Below the pieces are notes generated by a model. The model was not told the DNA's origin. It did no database searches and was given only the letters and a program-made list of their open reading frames with translations. A stretch of 64,000 bases of DNA from a virus: positions 1-64,000 of the IMG/VR virus record IMGVR_UViG_3300045988_136447; one strand, 5' to 3'. Made by a program: the position numbers and the translations under genes. Positions 16,154 to 56,821 of this stretch are shown one piece after another (positions within the stretch are counted from its first letter, which is position 1; every line of letters begins with the position of its first letter).

Positions 16154-17368
16154 ATGCTCGACCTTCCGCACATTGTACCGGAGTATGAAAACTCTAATTG
16201 CTCTGCTTGCAGACTAGATTGTGGTTCACGGCTGCAATTGGCAGGACATGGCCATAAGAAAATTCTGATTGTGTTCGATGCCCAAGACGCAATTCAGCAG
16301 ACTACAAAAACGTACTTTTGCGGAAGTCGTTACACTTACGTTCGTGATCTGCTGTACAAGTACGGCATTACGACGGATGACATATGGATGACTTCCACCA
16401 TTCAGTGTTATTCCGAGTACAAAGAAGAGCAACATGCCATTCACTGCAAGCCAAACCTCATCAAGACAATAAAGAGGCTTAAGCCGGTACTCGTGATCGG
16501 TTTTGGTGAATTTACAGCTAAGATGCTGCTGTCTTACATCATTGAAGACGGTATTTTCCTTGACCGAGTTCACGGTTGGGTGCATCCTAATCGTGAACTG
16601 GGCTGTAACATGATGTTTACGTACACTCCCCATCCGGGTTCGGCAAAGTATAAGACGATCGAGGAGTTCATTATCGAGCGCGACGTACATATGGCTATTA
16701 AAAGCCTTGCCAAGCCGCCTGACACGTACACGCCGGAAAACAAGTGTGTACGCCTGCTTGAACCTAAAGAGGCCGCCATGTGGCTGCGAGACCGCATAAA
16801 TGACAAAACAGAACGGTTTTCCGCTCTTGACTACGAGACTAACTGTCTGAAACCGTATAATCCCGCTGCCAAATTGTACAGTTGTGCGGTATGCGAAGAT
16901 CGCGATAACTCATATGCGTTTAAGATAGATGATACAACGTATTCTCTTATGCGTGAGTATTGGGCCACAAAGCATATCAGGAAGATAGCACACAACAGTG
17001 CGTTTGAACGCATGTGGACTATGGTTAAATTGAAAGTAATGCCAAGAAGACTGATCGCTGATACCATGTTGCTAGCTCATGTTCTTGACAACAGAGACGT
17101 AAAGTGGCTGTCGATTAAGTTTATCGGCCCTATGCTTACCGGATGCTCCGTATGGAATGGCCATATCGAATCTTACTTAGAGCCGAGTAAGCAGGATAAG
17201 AAGCTGTACGGAGAATATGCCTTGAACAGGGTTGCATCAATACCGATCAGGCAGCTTCTTACATACAACGCAATCGATAGTCTTGTAGAGTTTCGTACAT
17301 TTTTCAAACTGTATGAAATGCTTAAAAATTTTTACGGTACTTTCCCGATTGAAAGCGAGAGCGAATAA
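16154..17368 (+). CDS. DNA polymerase A N-terminal part: UDG family-4-like domain (catalytic GEAPG replaced) + 3'-5' exonuclease
   Basis: KILIVFDAQD…GSRYTYVRDLLYKYGI…IWMTSTIQC…HPGSA pattern; exo motif FSALDYETN; TAATG overlap with polymerase ORF. Confidence 0.55.
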   Translation: MLDLPHIVPEYENSNCSACRLDCGSRLQLAGHGHKKILIVFDAQDAIQQTTKTYFCGSRYTYVRDLLYKYGITTDDIWMTSTIQCYSEYKEEQHAIHCKPNLIKTIKRLKPVLVIGFGEFTAKMLLSYIIEDGIFLDRVHGWVHPNRELGCNMMFTYTPHPGSAKYKTIEEFIIERDVHMAIKSLAKPPDTYTPENKCVRLLEPKEAAMWLRDRINDKTERFSALDYETNCLKPYNPAAKLYSCAVCEDRDNSYAFKIDDTTYSLMREYWATKHIRKIAHNSAFERMWTMVKLKVMPRRLIADTMLLAHVLDNRDVKWLSIKFIGPMLTGCSVWNGHIESYLEPSKQDKKLYGEYALNRVASIPIRQLLTYNAIDSLVEFRTFFKLYEMLKNFYGTFPIESESE

Positions 17369-18741
17369 TGATTACGCCAACTACAATGGATGCCTTTAAA
17401 CTTGTGATGATGGGGGAAGAGGCACTTACTCAGGTATCCGTCAATGGATTTAAAATTGACAGGGACTACTACGAGAGACAGAAGCCCGTTATCCAAGAAG
17501 AAATCAAGCGTTTACGCACTCAGATACTCACTCAGTCGGAGATCGGAAGATGCTGGCATGAGAGGTATGGGGCTAAGACTAACATCGATTCCAACGATCA
17601 GTTGAAAGCCGTACTTGAACACGATATCCATTTCGATAAATTCAAAATCACGGACAAGGGCGGTAAGTCGGCAGATGCTTCCGTCATCGAAAAGCTGCCC
17701 TATGAGTTCAGTAATCCATTCAGCCGATATAAGCAGTTCGGCAAAATGTGGGGAAGCCTTATCACTCCCATCATGCTTGGTGCAGACATAAATGGGTTTG
17801 TGCACCCAAATATCAATCTTCACACCGTGAGAACTTACCGATCGTCATGCGATTCCCCTAACTTGCAGCAGGTTCCGAAGCATAACAAGTTGATTAAAGA
17901 AATCGTAAGAAACGGGTTCATACCTAGAAGTCCCAAGAGGATGCTTGCTGAAATCGACTTGCAGTCTGCTGAGGTTAGTGTTGGCTGCTGTCTGCACCGT
18001 GATAAGCAGATGTTGCAATTCCTGCACGACAAGACGATCGACATGCATACATTCGTTGAGAAAGAGTTTTATAAGCTCAATGATGATGAATTGTGTAAGG
18101 AGTTGCGATCTTCCGTAAAGGGAAGATTTGTGTTTGCTTCATTTTACGGAGCAGGTGCATCATCGATGGCCGCCTCGCTGTGGGAGTATATAGAAGAATC
18201 GAATTTCACACTTCCGACAGGCGAAAAGCTGAAAGACCATATGGCCAAGTTAGGCGTAGTCGACTATGACACCTGTCTCCAGCATACGGAAAGGGTATTC
18301 GATTGGTATTGGAATACTCTCTTCAAGGAGTACGGTGCATGGAAAGAAGCCATATGGGATTTGTACAAAAAACAGGGATACTTAGACTACCCAACCGGAT
18401 TCCGTGTGGTTGCCGCGATGACAAAGACACAGGCTATGAATACGATTATTCAGGGGTCTACGTTTCACCTGCTTCTACTGACGCTTATTGAGTTGCAGAA
18501 GCGAATGACTTACTATAAGTTAGAATCAAAAATAGTATGTCAGATTCATGACAGTATCGTTTTGGATTTACTCCCTTCGGAGCAACAGACTGTTTTTGAT
18601 CTGTATCTTGACAGCCAGGCAGCAGTACGCAAGCGTTGGCCGTGGCTTCTGTATCCGATTACCGCAGATGCGGATATCAGCGAAGTAGGCGGTACATGGG
18701 CTCACATGACAAGTTATGGAGAAATTACGCATGCAAGCTGA
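17368..18741 (+). CDS. polA: DNA polymerase A, polymerase domain
   Basis: Motif A LAEIDLQSAE, motif B RSSVKGRFVFASFYG, motif C CQIHDS. Confidence 0.85.
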   Translation: MITPTTMDAFKLVMMGEEALTQVSVNGFKIDRDYYERQKPVIQEEIKRLRTQILTQSEIGRCWHERYGAKTNIDSNDQLKAVLEHDIHFDKFKITDKGGKSADASVIEKLPYEFSNPFSRYKQFGKMWGSLITPIMLGADINGFVHPNINLHTVRTYRSSCDSPNLQQVPKHNKLIKEIVRNGFIPRSPKRMLAEIDLQSAEVSVGCCLHRDKQMLQFLHDKTIDMHTFVEKEFYKLNDDELCKELRSSVKGRFVFASFYGAGASSMAASLWEYIEESNFTLPTGEKLKDHMAKLGVVDYDTCLQHTERVFDWYWNTLFKEYGAWKEAIWDLYKKQGYLDYPTGFRVVAAMTKTQAMNTIIQGSTFHLLLLTLIELQKRMTYYKLESKIVCQIHDSIVLDLLPSEQQTVFDLYLDSQAAVRKRWPWLLYPITADADISEVGGTWAHMTSYGEITHAS

Positions 18742-25837: not shown

Positions 25838-26067
25838 ACTACGTCCCTAAACTTGGAAGATACATTGCAGAGCACGATATCGACCTTCGTCACACCGCAA
25901 AGCGTTTGCATATTTCGCTGAATGCGGCGCGGCGCTATGCCTATGAAACAGGCACAACACGGATGTTTGCTGCTATGGCTTGGGCTTATGCGCTGAATTG
26001 CACGCCTGAGGATTTGCTCGAAACAAAAGAAACTGGTGATGCGTTGCAGTGGAAAGACAAGAAATAA
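25834..26067 (+). CDS. small HTH DNA-binding protein
   Basis: GGAGG RBS; HTH-like segment DLRHTAKRLHISLNAARRY. Confidence 0.4.
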   Translation: MNYVPKLGRYIAEHDIDLRHTAKRLHISLNAARRYAYETGTTRMFAAMAWAYALNCTPEDLLETKETGDALQWKDKK

Positions 26068-27248
26068 AATCCATCGAGCTTGTCAACATCCAAAAGCACA
26101 AGCACATCACATTGTCGCTTTCCGGTATCAACGTATTAATCGGAGAGACGGAAAGCGGCAAAACGTCAATTTTACGCGGTATTCTGTGGAACATCCTCAA
26201 CAATACGTCTGGCGAAAAGCTCCTCAATAACGATGGCGCAAAGGCCTGCTCTGTGACCATTACATGCGGTGACGATGTAGTGTCTCGGAACTGGAGTAAA
26301 ACGGAAAACACTTACGCATTAAACGGCAAGAAGTTTTCCGCTATCAGAACGTCTGTTCCGGATGAAGTAAGTAAGCTGTATGCCGTCGATTCCGTAAACA
26401 TACAGCGCAGACGCGACGTGCCGTTTATGGTGTACTATAAGGACACTGAGTGCGCTAAACAGTTTGGGGATATGCTGGACGTATCGGAAATCGATCAAAC
26501 GATCGGGGCCAGTAATGCCCATGTACGCGAACTTAAAACGGAATGTGACGCCCTGAGCGCCGCGGTATCAAGCGGTGAAAAGGAGCTTGAAGAGCTTTCG
26601 TTTATCGATGAAGCTGCTGAATCGTTTTCTGCAATCAAAGAATTAGTAGTGTCTGCTGATTCTGAGGAAAGAAAACAGGAACGTTTTGGGGTTTTATCCG
26701 AGAAACTCACGCAAGCCGCCGAGTACACAAACAAGTACATCGCGCTTGGTGACGCACTTAAACAGTTTACTGCGCTTGACAAGTTCAGCGAAGATATAAC
26801 CTGTATTCAGGGGCAGTTGGAAACCTATATAACTTTGCATACTTCTCTAATGAGTACGAAGAAGCTGTTTGATAAGTACACTAAGTATGATGAAGCTTAT
26901 CATCTATTAATGTACTTTAATAATGATGCATCTGTACTTAGGGAAATTATTGCAGGGGGCAAAGAGCTTTCTGCTCTGAAAAATGAGCTTGTATCTTTAG
27001 ACTGCTCTAAATTTGAAAATTTAGACGAATCCATTAAGGAGCTGAATCAGATCACCAACTCTGCCGAGGAGATCGGTGCTATTGAAAATAAGGTTCATTC
27101 TTTATTTTTACTTTCAACGGACTACGTACAGGCGCAGACAGACAAAACGAAAAAAGAAGATCGGTACAGTGCTCTTCAACGGAAATTCAAGTCAGAAATG
27201 CCGAAAGTATGCCCGCTGTGTAATCAACCGATAGAGGTGCATGAATGA
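26049..27248 (+). CDS. sbcC: SbcC/Rad50-like ATPase, N-terminal half (head A + coiled coil, ending at CPLC zinc hook)
   Basis: Walker A LIGETESGKTS; long coiled coil; C-terminal …CPLCNQPIEVHE. Confidence 0.75.
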   Translation: MERQEIKSIELVNIQKHKHITLSLSGINVLIGETESGKTSILRGILWNILNNTSGEKLLNNDGAKACSVTITCGDDVVSRNWSKTENTYALNGKKFSAIRTSVPDEVSKLYAVDSVNIQRRRDVPFMVYYKDTECAKQFGDMLDVSEIDQTIGASNAHVRELKTECDALSAAVSSGEKELEELSFIDEAAESFSAIKELVVSADSEERKQERFGVLSEKLTQAAEYTNKYIALGDALKQFTALDKFSEDITCIQGQLETYITLHTSLMSTKKLFDKYTKYDEAYHLLMYFNNDASVLREIIAGGKELSALKNELVSLDCSKFENLDESIKELNQITNSAEEIGAIENKVHSLFLLSTDYVQAQTDKTKKEDRYSALQRKFKSEMPKVCPLCNQPIEVHE

Positions 27249-28126
27249 AAATACTTGCCATAGCGGATATGCACTTGACGGAGCACAGGCCGGTATGCCG
27301 CTCTGAAAATGAAAACTGGATTCAAGTAATTGATGAAAAATTCAATCAAATCAGAGACATGGCAGAAGGATTCTGCGCAGATCAAATCGTCATAGCAGGT
27401 GATGTTTTTGACGTTCCGGCAAGAAATACAAACTGGTTCATGTGTCAGTGCATTACATGGTTTGATATGCTGAAAACCGTTTGCCCGGTGAATGCAATTC
27501 CCGGAAATCATGATTTGATTATGGGGGATCAGGACAGCATTTACAGTACAAGCTTCGGCATACTCGAACAGGCAGGATGCATCTCTATCCCTGAGAATTT
27601 AGGGATTATCCCTTACGGAGAAACTAGAATTCAAGGGGAAACTAAGGCAGTTGTTGCCCATCAGGGACTATGGCTGAAAGAAAAACCGTTTGAAGGGGCT
27701 TCTGACAGCGGAAATGTGCATACTTGGGTGAAAGAGCATTTGCCGGAAGAGTGCAGACTTCTGATTACAGGACATTTTCACGTTCCGTTCTGTTGCAAGT
27801 CTGGAAACACTGCGGTTATTAACTGCGGAAGTATGTTCCGTCTACGGGCCGATCAGGTAGACTACCAGCCCGGAATGTGGTTGATTGACTACGATCAAAA
27901 GTCAGATTCCGTAAAAGTAAAACGAATGCCGTTTATCCTCACAAACCAAATCAGGAGAGACTACATTGAAGAAGCAGAAGAAAAAAAGAGACTTGAATCT
28001 CTGGTGGGTTCTGTTGAAGGAGACTTTGAATTGTCGCTCAATTTCAAAGATAACTTTTACAACCTCACGTCTGAAATTGACAATCGAGAAGAAATAATCA
28101 AAGAGTTTGAAAGGTGTACTAAATGA
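27245..28126 (+). CDS. sbcD: SbcD/Mre11-family nuclease
   Basis: Phosphoesterase motifs ADMH, GDVFD, GNHD, HQG. Confidence 0.85.
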   Translation: MKILAIADMHLTEHRPVCRSENENWIQVIDEKFNQIRDMAEGFCADQIVIAGDVFDVPARNTNWFMCQCITWFDMLKTVCPVNAIPGNHDLIMGDQDSIYSTSFGILEQAGCISIPENLGIIPYGETRIQGETKAVVAHQGLWLKEKPFEGASDSGNVHTWVKEHLPEECRLLITGHFHVPFCCKSGNTAVINCGSMFRLRADQVDYQPGMWLIDYDQKSDSVKVKRMPFILTNQIRRDYIEEAEEKKRLESLVGSVEGDFELSLNFKDNFYNLTSEIDNREEIIKEFERCTK

Positions 28127-28368
28127 ATGTAGCGGAAGAACTTTGTGATCTCAAACGTGCGTTGGAGACGGCAAAAGAGAATCGTGATCGTGCTCAAGGA
28201 AAACTTGAAGTGTTGCACAAGCAGCTTGAAGAGTATGGATTCACTTCCATTGAAGAACTTCAAAACGCCATCTCTGAGTTGAAATTGTCATACGAAAAGA
28301 AGAAAGTTGAGATTCAGGAGAAGATCAATGATTTCAAAAGAAAATATGGGGATATGCTCAACGATTGA
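28123..28368 (+). CDS. coiled-coil segment (possible middle part of split SbcC)
   Basis: Heptad-rich 81-aa ORF overlapping next ORF in another frame. Confidence 0.35.
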   Translation: MNVAEELCDLKRALETAKENRDRAQGKLEVLHKQLEEYGFTSIEELQNAISELKLSYEKKKVEIQEKINDFKRKYGDMLND

Positions 28369-28951
28369 GCAGTCACTACAAAATAAGATTGCATATAAAA
28401 ATGTAATCATTAAACAGTTGGATGCCAAGAAAGCTCAATACGCTAAACTGAAACATGAACTGGAAGTTGCGACAAGTACTCAAGCGCTGATTCAGGAAGC
28501 CGCACAACTTACACTATCCAGCATTTCGGTCAAGATAGATACCATCGTAACTAAGGTTATTCAGACGGTGTTTTCGAAGCCGTATAAATTCCATTTGGAG
28601 TTCAGAATCCTGTATGGGAAACTCGCTACGGATATGTATCTTGAGAGAGACGGAAAGCGCTATGATCCGAAATCAGATAACGGTGACGGCATGGTAGATA
28701 TCGTAGCGCTGGCACTGAGGGTTGCAGTAATCTGCCTGGATAAGCGAAACTTGAGAAGGATTCTTATTCTTGATGAGCCTTGCGGAGCACTGTCCGTAAA
28801 CTTCCAAGAGTACCTTGGAAAGATGTTGGAGTATTTTAGAGAAAAATTGAACTTTCAAATTTTTATGATTGCGGCACATGGTTCAAATTTGAATATCGAA
28901 TCCGCAAAATATTTTGATGTTCAGAATTTCATTGAGAATGGAGAATACTAA
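28328..28951 (+). CDS. sbcC: SbcC/Rad50-like ATPase, C-terminal half (coiled coil + head B)
   Basis: Walker B/D-loop ILILDEPCGALS; AGGAGA RBS before ATG 28328. Confidence 0.7.
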   Translation: MISKENMGICSTIEQSLQNKIAYKNVIIKQLDAKKAQYAKLKHELEVATSTQALIQEAAQLTLSSISVKIDTIVTKVIQTVFSKPYKFHLEFRILYGKLATDMYLERDGKRYDPKSDNGDGMVDIVALALRVAVICLDKRNLRRILILDEPCGALSVNFQEYLGKMLEYFREKLNFQIFMIAAHGSNLNIESAKYFDVQNFIENGEY

Positions 28952-28980: not shown

Positions 28981-29316
28981 TTACACTCCGGTGACAAAGA
29001 ACTTACGTGTAAACTTATCGTAAGTAATCACGTAAGTCACGTCAGCGGTCAGAGAAGTAGCGGTAAGCTGCGCCCCCGTAACTCCCGAATACAGCGGAGC
29101 GGAAGAACCGCAACACGTAGCGAGAAACACGAGGTTCGATGCCGTAGGGCTGATAATCGGAATATTAACCCGAAAAAGCTCATTCCGGCACAGATTGCAC
29201 ATTCTTGCATTGATTCCAACGTTCATAGACGTATCGGAAACGGAAACCGAAGCCTTATACACCCAATTACCGTTGCAGTCTCGATACTCATTACTGCAAA
29301 GACAGTTGCAAGCCAT
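28981..29316 (-). CDS. hypothetical Cys-rich protein
   Basis: ORF; GGAGG RBS before internal ATG. Confidence 0.4.
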   Translation of the reverse strand: MACNCLCSNEYRDCNGNWVYKASVSVSDTSMNVGINARMCNLCRNELFRVNIPIISPTASNLVFLATCCGSSAPLYSGVTGAQLTATSLTADVTYVITYDKFTRKFFVTGV

Positions 29317-29345
29317 AGTATCACCTCCTTCCATTGAGGATGGGA

Positions 29346-29792
29346 TTAGTTGCAACCGCAACCGCACGAGGGATACGACTTCACGCCACAGCCTGTAACG
29401 ATGCTGTTAAGGGTATTGTTGACCTGCGAAAGCTGATTGTTGGTCTGGCAGCCCACGGCATTGACGATCGCCTGAGTGCGGAGAGCCTGAATCTCATTCG
29501 CCTGATCGGTGATCTTCTGCTGATTGATAGCGGCAAACCCTTCACGGATAAGCTGCGCATTCGCATTGGTCTGCTGAGCGATGAAGTTGAGTCCGGCGCG
29601 ATTCTCACCAGTATATTCGCCTTGCTGGAAACAGGTCTGACAGCCGCCGCCTTGCATCGCATTGCCACAGCTTCCAAATCCATTTCCGAAAGCGTTGTTT
29701 TTACCAACGAGATAGCCGCCGATACCACCGATTACAGCGCCCCAAAGCGGCCCCCAACCGTTACCCGTGTTGTTTGTGACTGTTTCGTACAT
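29346..29792 (-). CDS. hypothetical Gly-rich protein with N-terminal glycine-zipper TM-like segment
   Basis: GAVIGGIGGYLVG; GNGFGSCGN; C-terminal CGCGCN. Confidence 0.45.
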   Translation of the reverse strand: MYETVTNNTGNGWGPLWGAVIGGIGGYLVGKNNAFGNGFGSCGNAMQGGGCQTCFQQGEYTGENRAGLNFIAQQTNANAQLIREGFAAINQQKITDQANEIQALRTQAIVNAVGCQTNNQLSQVNNTLNSIVTGCGVKSYPSCGCGCN

Positions 29793-33912: not shown

Positions 33913-34116
33913 TGTTTCCGGTCTCCTTTATTTAATGATCGCGGCGGTTGTCGCCGCGATTGCCACGATGGTGGTCGCACGCTTTGTACGACACTTTATG
34001 TTTGTCGATCTTGTTGATTTTCCGGAGCATCTGGTTCTGCCCTTTTCGATGCGTTTCTGCACCCGCAGCCGTCCGAGCAAAAGCGGGCCTACGACTGCAA
34101 AGATTTTCCGACGGCT

Positions 34117-34566
34117 TCAAGATGCTCCATTGGCCGCCTCCTTGTACTTCCACGCCCAGCCGCCGAATTCGCGCAGGATCGCGTGAAACTTCCGCATCTG
34201 TTTGCGAACCCAATAGCGGCGCGGATCGTACCAGCCGTAGCGGTAATTCGCCAGCTTCAGGCCGTTTTCAAGCATCTCGTCGTCAGCGTCCTTGCGTTCC
34301 GCTTCCGTACCGCCGAGCGCGCAGCGGATGTCGTGGATATCGGCGGCAAGAACAAGGGTCGGGTTCAATCCGCTGATCACCTCCCGCAGCCATTCAGGCA
34401 TCCAGTCCGCGCCGATGCCGTTGCAGACGCGACAGGCGCGTTCGCGGTCAAGCAGCAGTTCCGCGCCGGAAAGTTTCGCCGCTTTCGCAAGCGCAATTTT
34501 CTCTTCAATTTCATTCAGACTGTACATCCGTAACCTCCTGTTCCGCTTGTGTCTCTGCCAATTCAT
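34117..34566 (-). CDS. hypothetical protein (GC-rich island)
   Basis: ORF; codon bias consistent with island. Confidence 0.4.
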   Translation of the reverse strand: MNWQRHKRNRRLRMYSLNEIEEKIALAKAAKLSGAELLLDRERACRVCNGIGADWMPEWLREVISGLNPTLVLAADIHDIRCALGGTEAERKDADDEMLENGLKLANYRYGWYDPRRYWVRKQMRKFHAILREFGGWAWKYKEAANGAS

Positions 34567-34972
34567 CCATTTTCGCCCGGACTGCTTCGATGGTCAGATC
34601 GAACGCGGCGAGCCAAACCGGAACGCGCGAATCCTTTAGGTCGATCTGCCCACCGGGAGCGGCGTCGGAGGTCAGCAGCGCCAGTCCCGCGATGCCCTGC
34701 TTGAAGGTATCCGGGTTCTGTAGCGCCGCCGCCAGCTGATCCGCTGGAATCAGCGCATAGAGCGCGTTGATGAACGCTTCCTTATCCACCCATTCTTCCG
34801 TCGGTTCCGGCTCGGGAAGTTCGATGATCTCGCCGTCCACGATGTCCAGACGCGAAAGCGGCAGCGTGCTATCACAGCGCAGGTAGCCGTGTGCGGCGTA
34901 GTATTCCGCGCCGCGATAGGGCGGGATGGGCGACTCCTCGACGTATCCGTTGATTTTTCGTATGTATCTCAT
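34511..34972 (-). CDS. hypothetical protein (possible fibre assembly factor), start at MRYIRK with GGAGGA RBS
   Basis: ORF, RBS. Confidence 0.4.
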   Translation of the reverse strand: MRYIRKINGYVEESPIPPYRGAEYYAAHGYLRCDSTLPLSRLDIVDGEIIELPEPEPTEEWVDKEAFINALYALIPADQLAAALQNPDTFKQGIAGLALLTSDAAPGGQIDLKDSRVPVWLAAFDLTIEAVRAKMDELAETQAEQEVTDVQSE

Positions 34973-34986
34973 TGGTTCCTCCAAAG

Positions 34987-36693
34987 TTATGCTTGTTTCG
35001 GCGTCAGCGCCGCGATTTCGGCGGCGGAAAGCGCACGGTCGAACAGCAGACACGAATGAATTTTTCCGTAATAGTTACTCCACAAACCATTGCGATTATC
35101 CATCAGCGCGAATGAATCGGGACAGGCATAACCATCCATTTTCGGAATCCCGTTAACAATTTCTGATTTAAGCAGAACTCCGCAATGATAAATGGAAAGT
35201 CTGGTTTTATCATCCATCAGCTCGACAACAGCGACAACGGAGTTACGTCCGGCCAGATGGCCGGGGAGGATTGCCTCCGACAGATGTCTGGCGCCTGCAA
35301 TATCTACGCTGACTTCGAGTCGATATTCAAGCGTATCTACATTGAGCTGCTTATTGTAATTGACGGCAAGCGGAGACGGGATACTTCCTTTCGACGCCCC
35401 TTGTCCGGCAAGTTCTTGTTTACAATAATTAACGGATTCATTTTCCAAAGCCGCCGCGTCAAATTCAACGAACAATGTGTAATCTGAAATTTTTCCGCGC
35501 AAATCCAGCGCGGTATCGACCCTCGCCGGTCGCGTTTCGTCCGCCGCCTCGAACGCCCCCCGGTTGGTGCGGACGTTCGTTTTCGTGATGAGCCGCACCC
35601 GCTCCGCTTCGGACGGATAGCTCCAGACGGTGCGGCCGGAGGTCAGGCTTTTCCAGTACGTTTCGAAGATGACGCCGTCGAAATCGGAGACCGGAGCCGT
35701 TGTTGAATAAACCGCAATTTTCTTCGTTCCAGCCGAAGAAGTTGCCACAACTTCACCGTCAAATTCGACAGTGACGAACAGGCCGACGCGCTGAATACGG
35801 ATCGTGTGTTCTCCAAGCTGCCGAATGCGGTCCAGCGGAATCATAAAGGCACCCACGTCCGTCAGGCGGATGACGCTGTAATTGCCGCCCGTACCGTCAC
35901 CGGCAAAAGCAATATTGATGCTGCCGTTCTGCGAATTGTGATAGAAAATCTGGCTGATCGCCGAGCCTTCCGGATAACCGTCCAGCCGGTAGCGGATGAA
36001 AAATTCACAGTCATCCTCCCCAATCGAAGGGGCGGTTGTTTCTTCATCCCGCCACGCCTCCGGCTCCTCCGCGAAGTTGCGCGGAACGGGCGACGGCCAC
36101 GGATTCGACGTGTCGTTCAGATCGGAGTATGCTGCCTGCCAGACGGCCGTTCCCGTCGAATCGTCGGTCAGGGAAACCGCGTGAAGCGTCACCGGGGCGG
36201 AGGTCGTCACCACCCGGTTGTAAGCGGACGACTCCACACGTTCGCCGCTCTGCTCGTACACCGGGCCGTCCACCGTAACCCGTAACGTGGCGCCCTCGAC
36301 GGCCAGGGTGACTTCATGCCGCCCGGCCAGCGAAGACGCAAACGGAGCGTACACGAACACCCCGCCGTTGAACGAGTAACTTCCGAATACAAACCGGCAA
36401 CCGCGGGCGTCCTTGTCCAATGCAAAGGAGATTCTTCCGTTGCTCTGGTACATGATCCAATAGCTGCCGTTTTCGAAATCGTCGGCAACCGTGAAGTCGA
36501 ACGTAAAGTGATAATCGCTCGTCCAGGGGAGCGACGAATACATGGCGGCCTGTAGCGCATCCCACCGGTATCCCTCGCTGAAGTCGCGCGGCATCGCCGG
36601 GCGCAGACGGCTCCACCAGGAGCCGCCCCGGTCGGGCGTCAGGCAGAGCAGGCAGGACGGATCCTGCGCGGCGTCGGTGATCGGGTCTCTCAT
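34987..36693 (-). CDS. tail fibre / receptor-binding protein candidate with lectin (LamG/ConA)-like domains
   Basis: Size, position distal to tail genes, beta-rich repeats with W/Y/G pattern; GC-rich. Confidence 0.45.
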   Translation of the reverse strand: MRDPITDAAQDPSCLLCLTPDRGGSWWSRLRPAMPRDFSEGYRWDALQAAMYSSLPWTSDYHFTFDFTVADDFENGSYWIMYQSNGRISFALDKDARGCRFVFGSYSFNGGVFVYAPFASSLAGRHEVTLAVEGATLRVTVDGPVYEQSGERVESSAYNRVVTTSAPVTLHAVSLTDDSTGTAVWQAAYSDLNDTSNPWPSPVPRNFAEEPEAWRDEETTAPSIGEDDCEFFIRYRLDGYPEGSAISQIFYHNSQNGSINIAFAGDGTGGNYSVIRLTDVGAFMIPLDRIRQLGEHTIRIQRVGLFVTVEFDGEVVATSSAGTKKIAVYSTTAPVSDFDGVIFETYWKSLTSGRTVWSYPSEAERVRLITKTNVRTNRGAFEAADETRPARVDTALDLRGKISDYTLFVEFDAAALENESVNYCKQELAGQGASKGSIPSPLAVNYNKQLNVDTLEYRLEVSVDIAGARHLSEAILPGHLAGRNSVVAVVELMDDKTRLSIYHCGVLLKSEIVNGIPKMDGYACPDSFALMDNRNGLWSNYYGKIHSCLLFDRALSAAEIAALTPKQA

Positions 36694-38099
36694 GGCTGCA
36701 CCTCCAGAATGACGCTGAGGACGACCGCCGTGACGGGAGTGTTCCCGGAATCTACGAGGGTGTCGCGTGCGTCGTCAGTGTCGCGCCGGAGCGCAAGCGT
36801 CCCGGAGGCGACTTCGAGTGCGAATTCCGCCACGGCCGGAGCCGCTCCGACTGCAACGACGAACGAGGTGCCGGAGAGCTCGGAGCCGTTCACGACCGGC
36901 ACGAGGACGATGTTTCCGGTCACGCCGGAATCGATGCTGACCGTCTCGAGCGAAACGCGCCGGAGACTCCGCACTCTCCCCCGGAAGCTCAGCTGCCGGA
37001 ACGCCGTATCGAGATACCGGCAGTCGCCCCACGTCTCATCCGCCACCGCCATCTCCGTCACAGGGTCTGCGATGATCGTAGGGCCTGTCTCTCCGCGCAG
37101 CGGGATCGCCGCAGACCAGTCTGCCGATGTCGCCGAGTTCTTGACATAGAAATTCCCCTCGTCAGTGGCGAAAAAGACGAAACCCTCTGCCTCCGCGTCA
37201 TACTGCGCCCGTTCCGAAACCGGCCCCGAAGCATCAAATGCCAGTCCGTTGCCCGGATCACCCTTGATGTTGATAGGTGTAGGATTAGGCAAGTCCCCAT
37301 CGTTTATCCACGAAATAACACCGTCAGAACTTACACTGGGGGTGTATATAAATCCACGTGCGACGGCGTACCCGGAGCTCCAATCAGCCCCGATATTGGC
37401 AATTCTTTCACGGTAATAGTTATCATGATCCTCAGATTGAGAATCAAACCACGTAATACCATCTTCACTCCACTGACGCTCCAGCGGATTGCGAAAATAG
37501 GAATTGATAAATGCAATCGCTTCAGTGCCTGTAGGGGGAACCACTTGTGCAGAACTCCAATCACGGATTGTATTTTTAGCAATAAACGGTATCCATGCAA
37601 TTGTTGAAGGATTTGACAATCCTTGCATATACTGCTTGACATTGATGTATACGCCCGTATTGATGCTTACTTTGTCCGTTGTAACTTCTTTAAACTTAAC
37701 GGTATCGGAATTTATCCTTATAGAAAGTTGTCCGGATGCAAAATCCGCTGTCCCACCGTCAACCCAGTCACCCTCGATATTAAACATATTGGAAGTAGGG
37801 TCTGCTTCGTCAAACGGAATGACAGACTGAAGAGATTTTGCCATCAGATAGTCGTCATCATCAAAGTTGTTATCAGCGACAAACACAAATGAAGTATCTG
37901 TGTCAAATGAAATCGGAGTGAATGTAACAGCTCCAGCTTCGTCCATCTGACGCTCACCGAACTGAATGCACAGGATTTGCCACTGGCCACGCTCAATATT
38001 GATATAGTCAGAGGATTTCGTGACAAAAGCCCCGTCTGCATACACCTGAGCGCGCGTATTTATGTCAATGTATGTAAGGGTCTTTTGCATATATGTCAC
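36690..38099 (-). CDS. tail fibre protein (C-terminal ~190 aa GC-rich)
   Basis: Position; KGDPGNGLAFDASGP collagen-like triplets; composition switch inside gene. Confidence 0.45.
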   Translation of the reverse strand: MTYMQKTLTYIDINTRAQVYADGAFVTKSSDYINIERGQWQILCIQFGERQMDEAGAVTFTPISFDTDTSFVFVADNNFDDDDYLMAKSLQSVIPFDEADPTSNMFNIEGDWVDGGTADFASGQLSIRINSDTVKFKEVTTDKVSINTGVYINVKQYMQGLSNPSTIAWIPFIAKNTIRDWSSAQVVPPTGTEAIAFINSYFRNPLERQWSEDGITWFDSQSEDHDNYYRERIANIGADWSSGYAVARGFIYTPSVSSDGVISWINDGDLPNPTPINIKGDPGNGLAFDASGPVSERAQYDAEAEGFVFFATDEGNFYVKNSATSADWSAAIPLRGETGPTIIADPVTEMAVADETWGDCRYLDTAFRQLSFRGRVRSLRRVSLETVSIDSGVTGNIVLVPVVNGSELSGTSFVVAVGAAPAVAEFALEVASGTLALRRDTDDARDTLVDSGNTPVTAVVLSVILEVQP

Positions 38100-56667: not shown

Positions 56668-56742
56668 GCCGATTTAGCTCAGTGGTAGAGCAGCAGTTTT
56701 GTAAACTGCCTGTCATCGGTTCAAATCCGATAATCGGCTCCA
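56668..56742 (+). tRNA. tRNA-Thr (anticodon UGU)
   Basis: Cloverleaf folded by hand: 7-bp acceptor GCCGATT/AATCGGC, D GCTC/GAGC, anticodon stem GCAGT/ACTGC loop TTTGTAA, T-loop TTCAAAT, encoded CCA. Confidence 0.75.
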
Positions 56743-56747
56743 AATAT

Positions 56748-56821
56748 GGACGTATGGTGTAACGGCAGCACAGTTGATTTTGGTTCAACTAGCGCAGGCT
56801 CGAATCCTGCTGCGTCTACCA
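56748..56821 (+). tRNA. tRNA, probably Gln (anticodon UUG)
   Basis: T-arm GCAGG-CTCGAAT-CCTGC, anticodon stem GTTGA/TCAAC loop TTTTGGT; acceptor has two G-U pairs, so boundaries are less certain. Confidence 0.55.

What the first reader, a model, noticed from the sequence alone, without database searches (positions are those of the whole stretch)
26049..28951. SbcC (Rad50-like) split precisely at the zinc hook with SbcD inserted between the halves
The N-terminal ORF carries Walker A and a coiled coil, and stops six residues after CPLC, which is the Rad50/SbcC hook motif (CPxC). sbcD (27245-28126) follows. Then comes an 81-aa coiled-coil ORF, and then an ORF with coiled coil plus Walker B/D-loop (ILILDEPCGALS). 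The 81-aa and C-terminal ORFs overlap in different frames (28328-28368). That overlap could be a programmed frameshift or a sequencing error. This would yield an SbcC assembled from two or three polypeptides joined only through the hook and coiled coil.
Basis: seen in the sequence. Interest (0 to 1): 0.6.

Follow-up and report, generated by a model that had tools for sequence, protein, structure and literature searches.

The report
Rad50/SbcC ATPase encoded in three genes
This phage encodes its Rad50/SbcC-type DNA-end-processing ATPase as three separate small proteins, cut just after the zinc hook, and the same three-piece layout recurs in many phages and in a few sampled bacterial chromosome assemblies, so it is a real design and not a sequencing error.

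Summary
Four translationally coupled genes lie at 26049-28951:
- N (399 aa): Walker A, a long helical arm, and a stop 8 residues after CPLC.
- An SbcD/Mre11-type nuclease (293 aa).
- S (81 aa): helical.
- C (207 aa): signature-like motif, Walker B, D-loop and H-loop.

Profiles of N and C match the N- and C-terminal chains of archaeal Rad50 best. The sequencing-error and frameshift reading is refuted:
- In 43 distinct related loci the order is always N..S..C.
- 29 of 31 N-halves stop 5-24 residues after CxxC.
- The S|C junction differs between relatives in both overlap length and frame.
- All four genes are under purifying selection.

SbcD sitting between the pieces is specific to this clade. 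Elsewhere the gaps are empty or hold other genes. In two Firmicutes assemblies the operon lies between recA and rny.

Most likely this is a non-covalently assembled SbcCD-like nuclease. One point is unexplained: the arm is made of ~47-aa repeats whose number varies, while S and C keep a constant length. It therefore cannot be a canonical length-matched coiled coil.

I found no published description, and public names are wrong ("ParA", "minor structural protein"). Verdict: a new variant of a known kind, interest about 0.6.

The parts
26049..27248 (+). N piece (399 aa): Rad50/SbcC N-terminal ATPase lobe, long helical arm and zinc-hook motif; the stop comes 8 residues after CPLC
   Evidence: ORF. 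Pfam AAA_23, PHROG 16465/77 SbcC. The family profile hits M. jannaschii Rad50 at E 5.6e-17 and a Rad50 hook fragment, 6ZFF, at E 3.4e-4. The AF2 model's best fold match is the P. furiosus Rad50 N chain, 1F2U. Homologues are 349-480 aa and end just after CPxC.
26142..26165 (+). Walker A / P-loop, GETESGKT (residues 32-39 of N)
   Evidence: Read from the translation. G32, G37 and K38 are invariant in the family alignment.
26568..27062 (+). Tandem ~47-residue repeats in the arm; motif instances centred at residues 184, 231, 278 and 323
   Evidence: Motif positions. hhalign self-comparison gives off-diagonal hits at shifts of about 41-47, 94 and 138 (Prob 92%, E 6e-7). Other clades show the same period.
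27210..27221 (+). CPLC zinc-hook motif (residues 388-391 of N)
   Evidence: C388, P389 and C391 are invariant across 21 homologues and 22 concatenated sets. In 29 of 31 N-halves the last CxxC lies 5-24 residues before the stop.
27245..28126 (+). SbcD/Mre11-type metallophosphoesterase nuclease (293 aa); ATGA overlaps with N upstream and S downstream
   Evidence: Pfam Metallophos/Metallophos_2, PHROG 100 SbcD. NCBIfam gives weak Mre11/SbcD hits. Motifs I-V read from the sequence. Overlaps.
28123..28368 (+). S piece (81 aa): helix, conserved G-[FYV]-x-[ST/P] turn, helix; always encoded between N and C
   Evidence: The best 120 of 138 homologues are 52-93 aa, nearly all 77-93 aa (one 52-aa entry), and all stand-alone. 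Alignment. dN/dS 0.10-0.25. Only weak coiled-coil-type hits, e.g. Rad50 model positions 549-610/878 at E 1.7e-5. No specific PDB relative.
28328..28951 (+). C piece (207 aa from ATG 28328): short coil plus Rad50/SbcC C-terminal ATPase lobe
   Evidence: PHROG 15167 'ATPase', E 6e-25. The family profile hits the P. furiosus Rad50 C-terminal chains 3QKR_B and 1II8_B at E 6e-8 and 3e-7 over nearly their full length. All 56 listed homologues are stand-alone: 54 are 192-216 aa and two are shorter entries of 153 and 113 aa. 2,820 cluster representatives at E<=1e-10; 143 of the best 150 are 186-230 aa.
28682..28699 (+). Degenerate signature motif, G-D-G-M-V-D (residues 119-124 of C)
   Evidence: G119, G121 and D124 are invariant. 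The motif aligns with the Rad50 signature region.
28760..28780 (+). Walker B and start of the D-loop, ILILDEP (residues 145-151 of C); H-loop His184 at 28877-28879
   Evidence: L148, D149, E150, S156, Q177 and H184 are invariant.
28315..28319 (+). Shine-Dalgarno-like AGGAG, 8 nt upstream of the C start codon and inside the S coding sequence
   Evidence: Sequence read.

Best explanation
The region encodes an SbcCD/Mre11-Rad50-type DNA-end-processing nuclease. Its ATPase subunit is made from three separately translated polypeptides.

- N supplies the Walker A lobe, the arm and the CPxC hook.
- C supplies the signature, Walker B, D-loop and H-loop lobe, plus a short coil.
- S, a small helical protein always encoded between N and C, supplies part of the return path of the arm or clamps it.

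Shown:
- The four genes are separate, coupled and conserved.
- N and C are complementary halves of a Rad50-like ABC ATPase.
- The cut falls 5-24 residues after the hook across the family.

Inferred:
- N and C lobes reassemble non-covalently into one nucleotide-binding domain, as the engineered two-chain Rad50 catalytic domain does.
- Two such assemblies dimerise on ATP and through a Zn(Cys)4 hook formed by two N pieces.
- SbcD docks on the head.
- The complex cuts hairpins and DNA ends for phage replication and recombination.

The exact arm geometry and the docking site of S are not known.
For: 1. Anatomy. ATGA overlaps at N|sbcD and sbcD|S. C has its own SD and ATG inside S.

2. Homology.
- The N profile hits Rad50 N chains at E 5.6e-17 and a Rad50 hook fragment at E 3.4e-4. 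The N model's best fold hit is Rad50 N chain 1F2U.
- The C profile hits Rad50 C chains at E 6e-8.
- In relative L026, N maps to positions 3-394 and C to positions 687-892 of the same 895-position Rad50 model.

3. Complementary motifs.
- Walker A occurs only in N.
- The signature-like motif, Walker B, D-loop and H-loop occur only in C.
- All of these are invariant.

4. Conservation of the split.
- 43 distinct loci, always in the order N..S..C.
- 29 of 31 N-halves stop 5-24 aa after CxxC.
- Homologues of N, S and C are all stand-alone.
- Junction overlaps and frames differ between relatives.

5. Selection. dN/dS is 0.06-0.28 for all four genes among close relatives.

6. Co-divergence. Between the window and L016, the arm, S and the C coil are 54-63% identical at nucleotide level. 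sbcD lies between them at about 80%, and the N-lobe is 97%.

7. Context.
- The genes sit at the end of a replication/recombination module with a family-A polymerase, ligase and FEN.
- In two large contigs from metagenome-assembled genomes (MAGs) they lie between recA and rny.

8. Established knowledge. The Rad50 catalytic domain was crystallised as co-expressed N and C chains (PDB 1F2T/1F2U, 1II8, 3QKR). These are the very chains that N and C hit.
Against: - No direct evidence of physical assembly. The multimer-style modelling could not be run, and the single-sequence fusion model was uninformative (pLDDT 39.6).
- The arm of N is about 240 aa. That is about 1.75 times the available return path: S (81 aa) plus the C coil (about 56 aa).
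- N length varies from 349 to 537 aa, while S and C stay constant.
- The arm consists of ~47-aa repeats.
- Together these do not fit a canonical length-matched antiparallel coiled coil.
- The signature motif is degenerate: G-D-G in this clade and G-G-G elsewhere, instead of S-G-G.
- S has no specific relative of known structure, and no N-S or S-C fusion was found that would fix its place in the chain.
Confidence: 0.78

Rival explanations
1. S and C, or all the pieces, are really one gene. On this reading the 28328-28368 overlap reflects a sequencing error or a programmed ribosomal frameshift that fuses S to C.
For: S and C overlap by 41 nt in different frames. An A-rich stretch (TTCAAAAGAAAAT) lies in the overlap.
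Against: - C needs a +1 shift, not -1.
- C has its own AGGAG and ATG.
- In relatives the overlap is 4, 23 or 17 nt, and the frame relation is -1 in one and +1 in the others, so no conserved slippery site can exist.
- The exact S protein is seen on 142 independent contigs.
- All 56 C homologues listed and the best 120 of 138 S homologues are stand-alone.
- The few longer C-half relatives carry unrelated extensions, not S.
Confidence: 0.02
2. The ATPase has two pieces, N and C. S is not a remnant of the coiled coil. It is a dedicated accessory subunit: for example a clamp at the root of the arm, an adaptor to SbcD or DNA, or a regulator.
For: - S has a conserved internal turn, G-[FYV]-x-[ST/P], and near-invariant residues (A17, G39, I50). 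That is unusual for plain coiled coil.
- The turn resembles helix-turn-helix repeat turns.
- S length stays constant while the arm varies.
- S is never fused to N or C.
Against: - S always sits between N and C in gene order, whatever else is inserted.
- It is usually translationally coupled to C.
- It co-diverges with the arm and the C coil.
- Weak matches place it on the descending coil of Rad50 models.

These two roles are not mutually exclusive.
Confidence: 0.3
3. The pieces are decaying fragments of an sbcC gene broken by insertion of sbcD or mobile genes, and they are no longer functional.
For: - Genes of other kinds sit in the gaps:
  - an AP2-domain protein in phage vB_BboS-125;
  - two extra ORFs in L006;
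  - a two-component system in L029.
- The signature motif is degenerate.
Against: - Purifying selection on every piece, dN/dS 0.06-0.28.
- Invariant catalytic motifs.
- Thousands of cluster representatives with the same stand-alone length.
- The split persists where nothing is inserted, as in L024, L026 and L028.
Confidence: 0.02
4. N and C belong to a different ABC/SMC-like system, such as a defence or counter-defence ATPase of the Lamassu LmuB, PtuA or OLD kind, and not to an SbcCD-type end-processing nuclease.
For: N gives weak PADLOC hits to LmuB (E 2.7e-9), AriA, mad3 and PtuA, and NCBIfam hits to archaeal SMC-related proteins.
Against: - The best solved-structure hits for both halves are Rad50.
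- The CPxC hook is invariant.
- An Mre11/SbcD-type nuclease with all motifs is always in the operon or fused to N.
- The neighbourhood is replication/recombination, or recA in chromosomes.
- All the PADLOC hits are to the generic P-loop or coil regions.
Confidence: 0.08

Closest known systems
SbcCD of E. coli, Mre11-Rad50 of archaea and eukaryotes, and the phage versions T4 gp46/gp47 and T5 D13/D12
   Same: - ABC-type ATPase head with Walker A, Q-loop-like region, signature region, Walker B, D-loop and H-loop.
- CPxC hook at the end of the ascending helix.
- Partner metallophosphoesterase nuclease with motifs I-V in the same operon.
- Location in a replication/recombination module.
   Different: - The ATPase is encoded as three genes, N, S and C, instead of one chain that folds back on itself.
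- The chain ends 5-24 residues after the hook.
- The descending path (S plus the C coil, about 137 aa) is much shorter than the ascending arm (about 200-385 aa).
- The arm is built from ~47-aa tandem repeats of variable number.
- The signature motif is degenerate.
Engineered two-chain Rad50 catalytic domain (P. furiosus Rad50cd; PDB 1F2T/1F2U, 1II8, 3QKR)
   Same: Separate N-terminal and C-terminal polypeptides reassemble into an active nucleotide-binding domain. N and C here find exactly those A and B chains as their best solved relatives.
   Different: That split is a laboratory construct in which the arm and hook are deleted. Here the split is natural, the arm and hook are kept on the N piece, and a third small protein is added.
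Mre11/Rad50 (SbcD/SbcC) fusion proteins described by Yoshida, Claverie and Ogata 2011 (PMC3175470), including Bacillus phage 0305phi8-36 gp8
   Same: 0305phi8-36 gp8 belongs to this family: SbcD fused to the N piece, ending 17 residues after CPTC.
   Different: [quoted passage not shown] Here that segment is found as gp5, three genes downstream, with S as gp7.
Phage 'genes in pieces': for example T4 topoisomerase gp39/gp60, and the Aeromonas phage Aeh1 NrdA split by a homing endonuclease gene (from my own knowledge, not checked here)
   Same: An enzyme is encoded by separate adjacent ORFs and reconstituted from polypeptides. Free-standing genes, including a likely mobile one, occupy the split site. 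Here that is the AP2-domain gene at the hook split in vB_BboS-125.
   Different: Those splits are confined to a few phage lineages and are attributed to a recent insertion. This split is shared by thousands of protein clusters, persists with nothing inserted, and also occurs in two chromosome-sized bacterial contigs.

Membership tests
Rad50/SbcC family of SMC-like ABC ATPases | N-terminal lobe with Walker A (GxxxxGKT/S) | tested here: met
   GETESGKT at residues 32-39. G32, G37 and K38 are invariant. The profile hits Rad50 N chains at E 5.6e-17. The best fold hit is the 1F2U N chain.
Rad50/SbcC family of SMC-like ABC ATPases | C-terminal lobe with signature motif, Walker B, D-loop and H-loop | tested here: met
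   LILDE, S156, Q177 and H184 are invariant. The signature region is reduced to G-x-G-x-x-D: NGDG in this clade and RGGG in others. The profile hits Rad50 C chains at E 6e-8 over nearly the full chain.
Rad50/SbcC family of SMC-like ABC ATPases | CxxC zinc hook at the tip of the arm | tested here: met
   C388-P389-x-C391 is invariant. The end of N aligns with a Rad50 hook fragment, 6ZFF, at E 3.4e-4. Zinc binding itself cannot be tested with these tools.
Rad50/SbcC family of SMC-like ABC ATPases | One polypeptide that folds back on itself, so that its N and C termini form one head | tested here: not met
   Three separate genes in the window and in all 43 distinct related loci. No full-length homologue appeared among the listed hits.
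Rad50/SbcC family of SMC-like ABC ATPases | Antiparallel intramolecular coiled coil with ascending and descending strands of matching length | tested here: not met
   The ascending arm is about 240 aa here and about 200-385 aa in relatives. S plus the C coil is about 137 aa and constant. The arm is made of ~47-aa repeats.
Rad50/SbcC family of SMC-like ABC ATPases | ATP-dependent head dimerisation and DNA-stimulated ATPase activity | not testable with these tools
   Needs biochemistry.
SbcD/Mre11 nuclease (partner subunit) | Calcineurin-like phosphoesterase fold with motifs I-V, encoded next to the ATPase | tested here: met
   Pfam Metallophos at E 1e-9, Metallophos_2 at E 9e-12, PHROG 100 SbcD at E 1.4e-12. 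Motifs D8/H10, G52-D53, GNHD 87-90, H139 and GHFH 176-179 were read from the sequence. The gene is present in or beside the operon in most loci, or is fused to N.
SbcD/Mre11 nuclease (partner subunit) | [quoted passage not shown] | not tested
   The conserved C-terminal region, residues 231-293, exists. It was not compared with Mre11 Rad50-binding domains.
Programmed ribosomal frameshift site | A conserved slippery sequence and a conserved frame relation at the junction in relatives | tested here: not met
   The overlap is 41, 4, 23 or 17 nt. The frame relation is +1, -1, +1, +1.

The most novel reading that the evidence does not exclude
This may not be just a cut version of SbcC. It may be a distinct architectural class of Rad50-like machine, with these features:
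- A repeat-built arm (~47-aa units, 3 to about 7 copies) ending in a C-terminal zinc hook. The arm does not pair along its length with a descending strand from the same unit.
- A dedicated ~80-aa subunit, S, that organises the base or tip of the arm.
- A chromosomal form encoded between recA and rny in some Firmicutes. That would be a previously unrecognised bacterial double-strand-break processing complex.
Probability: 0.3. Interest if true: 0.75.

Novelty: new variant of a known kind. Interest (0 to 1): 0.6.

Why it matters
Rad50, SbcC and the SMC proteins are defined by a single chain that runs out along a coiled coil, turns at a hook or hinge, and returns to complete its own ATPase head. 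A large natural family ends the chain at the hook and supplies the return path and the second half of the head in trans. This bears on the field in several ways:
- Covalent continuity through the hook is dispensable in nature.
- It offers a ready-made system for separating the roles of hook, arm and head. Each piece can be mutated, titrated or swapped on its own.
- It raises a structural question: how does a repeat-built arm of variable length work with a return path of constant length?

It also has a practical side. These proteins are named "ParA", "chromosome segregation ATPase", "minor structural protein" or "hypothetical" in public records. As a result SbcCD-like systems are under-counted in phages, and a published survey reported one half as missing.

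The recA-rny location in two Firmicutes assemblies suggests a cellular repair role worth testing.

Tried and rejected
1. Structure of the assembled complex.
- A direct N+S+C fusion folded from a single sequence gave pLDDT 39.6 and was unusable.
- Block alignments of unpaired N, S and C rows were scrambled by MAFFT in local tests, even with duplicated reference rows.
- Only N alone could be modelled with an alignment. No coordinates are returned, so the arm topology stayed unresolved.

2. Nucleotide search of the phage collection found nothing. Only protein-level searches found relatives.

3. phmmer of N alone against solved structures found nothing meaningful. The family profile was needed.

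4. The S profile against solved structures gave only generic helical and designed-protein hits. The Pfam "Phage_scaffold" hit to S is below threshold and reflects coiled-coil composition.

5. I looked for natural S-C or N-S fusions that would fix the place of S. The longer C-half relatives carry unrelated or disordered extensions.

6. A seed HMM of the four window repeats was too narrow to find repeats in other clades. hhalign self-comparison worked instead.

7. Seven literature searches for a described split SbcC/Rad50 found none. Papers checked in detail were not about this.
Full report
**1. What is in the window**

The ORF listing and the raw sequence confirm four same-strand ORFs.

- N, 26049-27248 (GTG start, 399 aa). 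It has the P-loop GETESGKT at residues 32-39, then a long helical region. It ends ...KVCPLCNQPIEVHE-stop.
- sbcD, 27245-28126 (293 aa). It starts with an ATGA overlap on the N stop codon.
- S, 28123-28368 (81 aa). It starts with a second ATGA overlap, on the sbcD stop.
- C. The longest ORF begins at TTG 28307. However, ATG 28328 is preceded at 8 nt by AGGAG (28315-28319) and gives a 207-aa protein. That is the length gene callers gave to its close homologues.

S and C overlap by 41 nt.

**2. What the pieces are**

Domain and family hits:
- Pfam and PHROGs call N an AAA_23/SbcC-like ATPase.
- They call the second gene a calcineurin-type phosphoesterase of the SbcD family.
- C matches PHROG 15167, "ATPase", at E 6e-25.

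Family profiles are clearer.
- A 21-sequence profile of N finds M. jannaschii Rad50 at E 5.6e-17, over the whole N-lobe and the start of the coil.
- It then finds the P. furiosus Rad50 N-terminal chains.
- It also finds a Rad50 hook fragment, 6ZFF, aligned to the last ~70 residues of N at E 3.4e-4.
- A 19-sequence profile of C finds the P. furiosus Rad50 C-terminal chains 3QKR_B and 1II8_B at E 6e-8 and 3e-7, over nearly their full length.
- An AlphaFold2 model of N (21-sequence alignment, mean pLDDT 68.8) has the Rad50 N chain of 1F2U as its best Foldseek match.
- In the chromosomal relative L026, N maps to positions 3-394 and C to positions 687-892 of the same 895-position NCBIfam Rad50 model.

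The catalytic motifs are divided between the pieces.
- Walker A (G32, G37, K38 invariant) and the hook (C388, P389, C391 invariant) are in N.
- C holds the G-x-G-x-x-D signature remnant, Walker B LILDE, D-loop Ser156, Gln177 and H-loop His184. All are invariant.

Neither piece is a complete ABC ATPase, but together they are. The SbcD gene has phosphoesterase motifs I-V intact (read from the translation).

**3. The split is real and old**

- All 56 C homologues listed are stand-alone. Of these, 54 are 192-216 aa and two are shorter entries.
- All 36 N homologues are 349-480 aa. Every complete one fetched ends a few residues after C-P-x-C.
- The best 120 of 138 S homologues are stand-alone, nearly all 77-93 aa. 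The exact S protein of this window is seen on 142 contigs.
- An exhaustive HMMER search with the C profile finds 4,058 cluster representatives at E<=1e-3 and 2,820 at E<=1e-10. Of the best 150, 143 are 186-230 aa. The longer ones carry unrelated or disordered extensions, not S.

I fetched 58 loci from phage records, viral contigs, metagenomes and genome assemblies. I scanned their ORFs with HMMs of N, SbcD (D), S and C.
- Among 43 distinct loci, the order of the ATPase pieces is always N..S..C.
- In 29 of the 31 loci where N is captured, it stops 5-24 residues after its last CxxC. The two exceptions are one N broken by masked sequence and one with a 31-residue tail.

At the S|C junction the overlap is 41, 4, 23 or 17 nt in four relatives. 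The frame relation is +1, -1, +1, +1. No conserved frameshift site can exist.

Among close relatives, dN/dS is:
- 0.10-0.28 for N;
- 0.00-0.10 for sbcD;
- 0.10-0.25 for S;
- 0.06-0.16 for C.

**4. SbcD in the gap is clade-specific**

| Gene order | Where seen |
|---|---|
| N-D-S-C | 21 distinct loci, including this window and similar ~60-75 kb uncultivated phage genomes |
| N, two extra ORFs, D, S, C | L006 |
| D-N-S-C, with the three pieces contiguous | 5 loci, e.g. L024, L025, L026, L028 |
| D-N-S, response regulator and histidine kinase, C | L029 |
| N, one gene, S, C, one gene, D | Bacillus prophage phBC6A51 and phage vB_BboS-125; in the latter the gene at the hook split is an AP2-domain protein |
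| SbcD fused to N (gp8), S (gp7), unrelated gene (gp6), C (gp5) | Bacillus phage 0305phi8-36 |

The three-way split is the constant feature. What lies in the two gaps varies.

**5. Not only phages**

In two contigs of 271 kb and 482 kb, the D-N-S-C operon lies between recA and rny/ymdB. These come from metagenome-assembled genomes (MAGs) of Tepidanaerobacteraceae and Thermoanaerobacterales. That is a core chromosomal neighbourhood, and no phage genes were seen within the 12 kb read.

**6. How it most likely works**

Shown: separate, coupled and conserved genes that encode complementary Rad50 halves, a hook, and an Mre11-type nuclease.

Inferred from established Rad50 biology:
- N and C lobes associate non-covalently into one nucleotide-binding domain. 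The engineered two-chain Rad50 catalytic domain does this (PDB 1F2T/1F2U, 1II8, 3QKR), and those are the chains that N and C hit.
- ATP drives head dimerisation.
- Two N pieces share a zinc ion through their CPxC motifs.
- SbcD binds the head.
- The complex opens hairpins and processes DNA ends.

Here the genes sit at the end of a replication/recombination module:
- a DnaB-like helicase;
- a UDG-exonuclease ORF followed by a family-A polymerase ORF;
- Dam methylase;
- a clamp-loader-like ATPase;
- ATP-dependent ligase;
- FEN.

A 160-aa ORF with a RuvC-like GIDPG motif also lies there. It gave no Pfam hit, and I read the motif from the translation.

One indirect sign links the arm, S and the C coil. 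Between the window and L016, nucleotide identity by segment is:

| Segment | Nucleotide identity |
|---|---|
| N-lobe | 97% |
| Arm | 54-59% |
| sbcD | about 80% |
| S plus C coil | 54-63% |
| C-lobe | 71-95% |

Two non-adjacent segments have diverged together while the gene between them has not. Faster evolution of coiled regions in general could also produce this pattern, so it is suggestive only.

**7. What does not fit a simple "cut SbcC"**

- The ascending arm of N is about 240 residues (146-385). The return path is at most S (81 aa) plus the coil of C (about 56 aa).
- Across the family, N ranges from 349 to 537 aa, while S (77-92 aa) and C (195-236 aa) are constant.
- Against the Rad50 model, roughly positions 445-655 of the descending coil have no counterpart except S.
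- The arm is built of tandem ~47-residue repeats. Motif instances are centred at residues 184, 231, 278 and 323.
- hhalign self-comparison gives off-diagonal matches at shifts of about 41-47, 94 and 138, at 92% probability. Other clades show the same 44-54-residue period.
- The N-only model shows helices 146-182 and 184-309, a low-confidence break at 310-324, and a helix 325-383 before the hook.

So several geometries remain open:
- the arm may fold back on itself;
- it may pair with the arm of a second N;
- it may carry S somewhere other than next to the hook.

S has a conserved internal turn, G-[FYV]-x-[ST/P], and near-invariant residues. It has no specific solved relative. Its role as return strand or as accessory clamp is open.

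**8. Comparison with what is known**

- The system works like SbcCD/Mre11-Rad50 and meets the sequence-level family criteria for head motifs, hook and nuclease partner.
- It fails the single-chain and matched-arm criteria.
- I found no paper describing a natural split of SbcC or Rad50.
- Yoshida et al. 2011 (PMC3175470) listed 0305phi8-36 gp8 as an Mre11/Rad50 fusion. They noted that one P-loop NTPase segment "was not observed". It is gp5.
- PHROGs already holds N and C as separate families labelled "exonuclease" and "ATPase".
- GenBank names the C piece "chromosome partitioning protein ParA" or "chromosome segregation ATPase".
- S is named "minor structural protein" or "Zn-ribbon protein".

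The genes are therefore in databases, but I found no record or paper in what I searched that treats them as one split ATPase.

**9. Verdict**

The split at the hook and the three polypeptides hold. The frameshift or sequencing-error reading is rejected, and the role given to the sbcD insertion needs correcting.
- Novelty: a new variant of a known kind.
- Interest is about 0.6. It would rise if the arm geometry proves non-canonical, or if the recA-linked chromosomal form proves to be a distinct repair complex.

Noticed in passing
window 16154-18741: The family-A DNA polymerase also appears to be in two pieces. ORF 16154-17368 carries a uracil-DNA-glycosylase-superfamily domain plus the 3'-5' exonuclease domain. 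A separate ORF, 17368-18741, carries the polymerase domain and starts on the stop of the first.
   Followed up: no
L024 2299-8302 and L026 2285-8286: In 271-kb and 482-kb contigs from Tepidanaerobacteraceae and Thermoanaerobacterales genome assemblies, the sbcD-N-S-C operon lies between recA and rny/ymdB. It looks chromosomal, not prophage.
   Followed up: partly
L029 3894-5933: In a Methylocystaceae assembly, a response regulator and a histidine kinase are encoded between S and C of the split ATPase. L027 shows a similar ~2-kb gap.
   Followed up: no
L003 4907-5479 (Bacillus phage vB_BboS-125 gp33): An AP2-domain protein, possibly a mobile endonuclease-type gene, sits exactly at the hook split between N and S. 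In phBC6A51 a 100-aa ORF occupies the same place.
   Followed up: no
window 26049-28951 versus L016 3710-6615: There is a sharp mosaic. The N-lobe is 97% identical at nucleotide level. Identity drops to about 55% at the start of the arm, near 26480-26550. It returns to about 80% in sbcD and drops again in S and the C coil. This suggests recombination breakpoints at the lobe/arm boundaries.
   Followed up: partly
window 34001-38000: GC content rises to 0.56 against about 0.42-0.47 elsewhere. The stretch covers minus-strand ORFs 34987-36693 (568 aa) and 36690-38099 (469 aa), which were not annotated here.
   Followed up: no
window 28981-29792, minus strand: Directly downstream and convergent lie two small ORFs: a Cys-rich one (28981-29367, 128 aa) and a Gly/Asn/Cys-rich one (29346-29792, 148 aa). 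Their function is unknown.
   Followed up: no
window 56668-56821: tRNA-Thr(TGT) and tRNA-Gln(TTG) lie side by side on the plus strand.
   Followed up: no
window 27204-27248 and homologous N tails: After CPxC, many N-halves carry a further Cys or His within 5-12 residues: CPLCGKERCND, CPLCGNLKGKCDD, CPLCEQTHKGGGC, and here CPLCNQPIEVHE. It could be an extra metal ligand. Other clades instead have a short amphipathic helix, as after the Rad50 hook.
   Followed up: no
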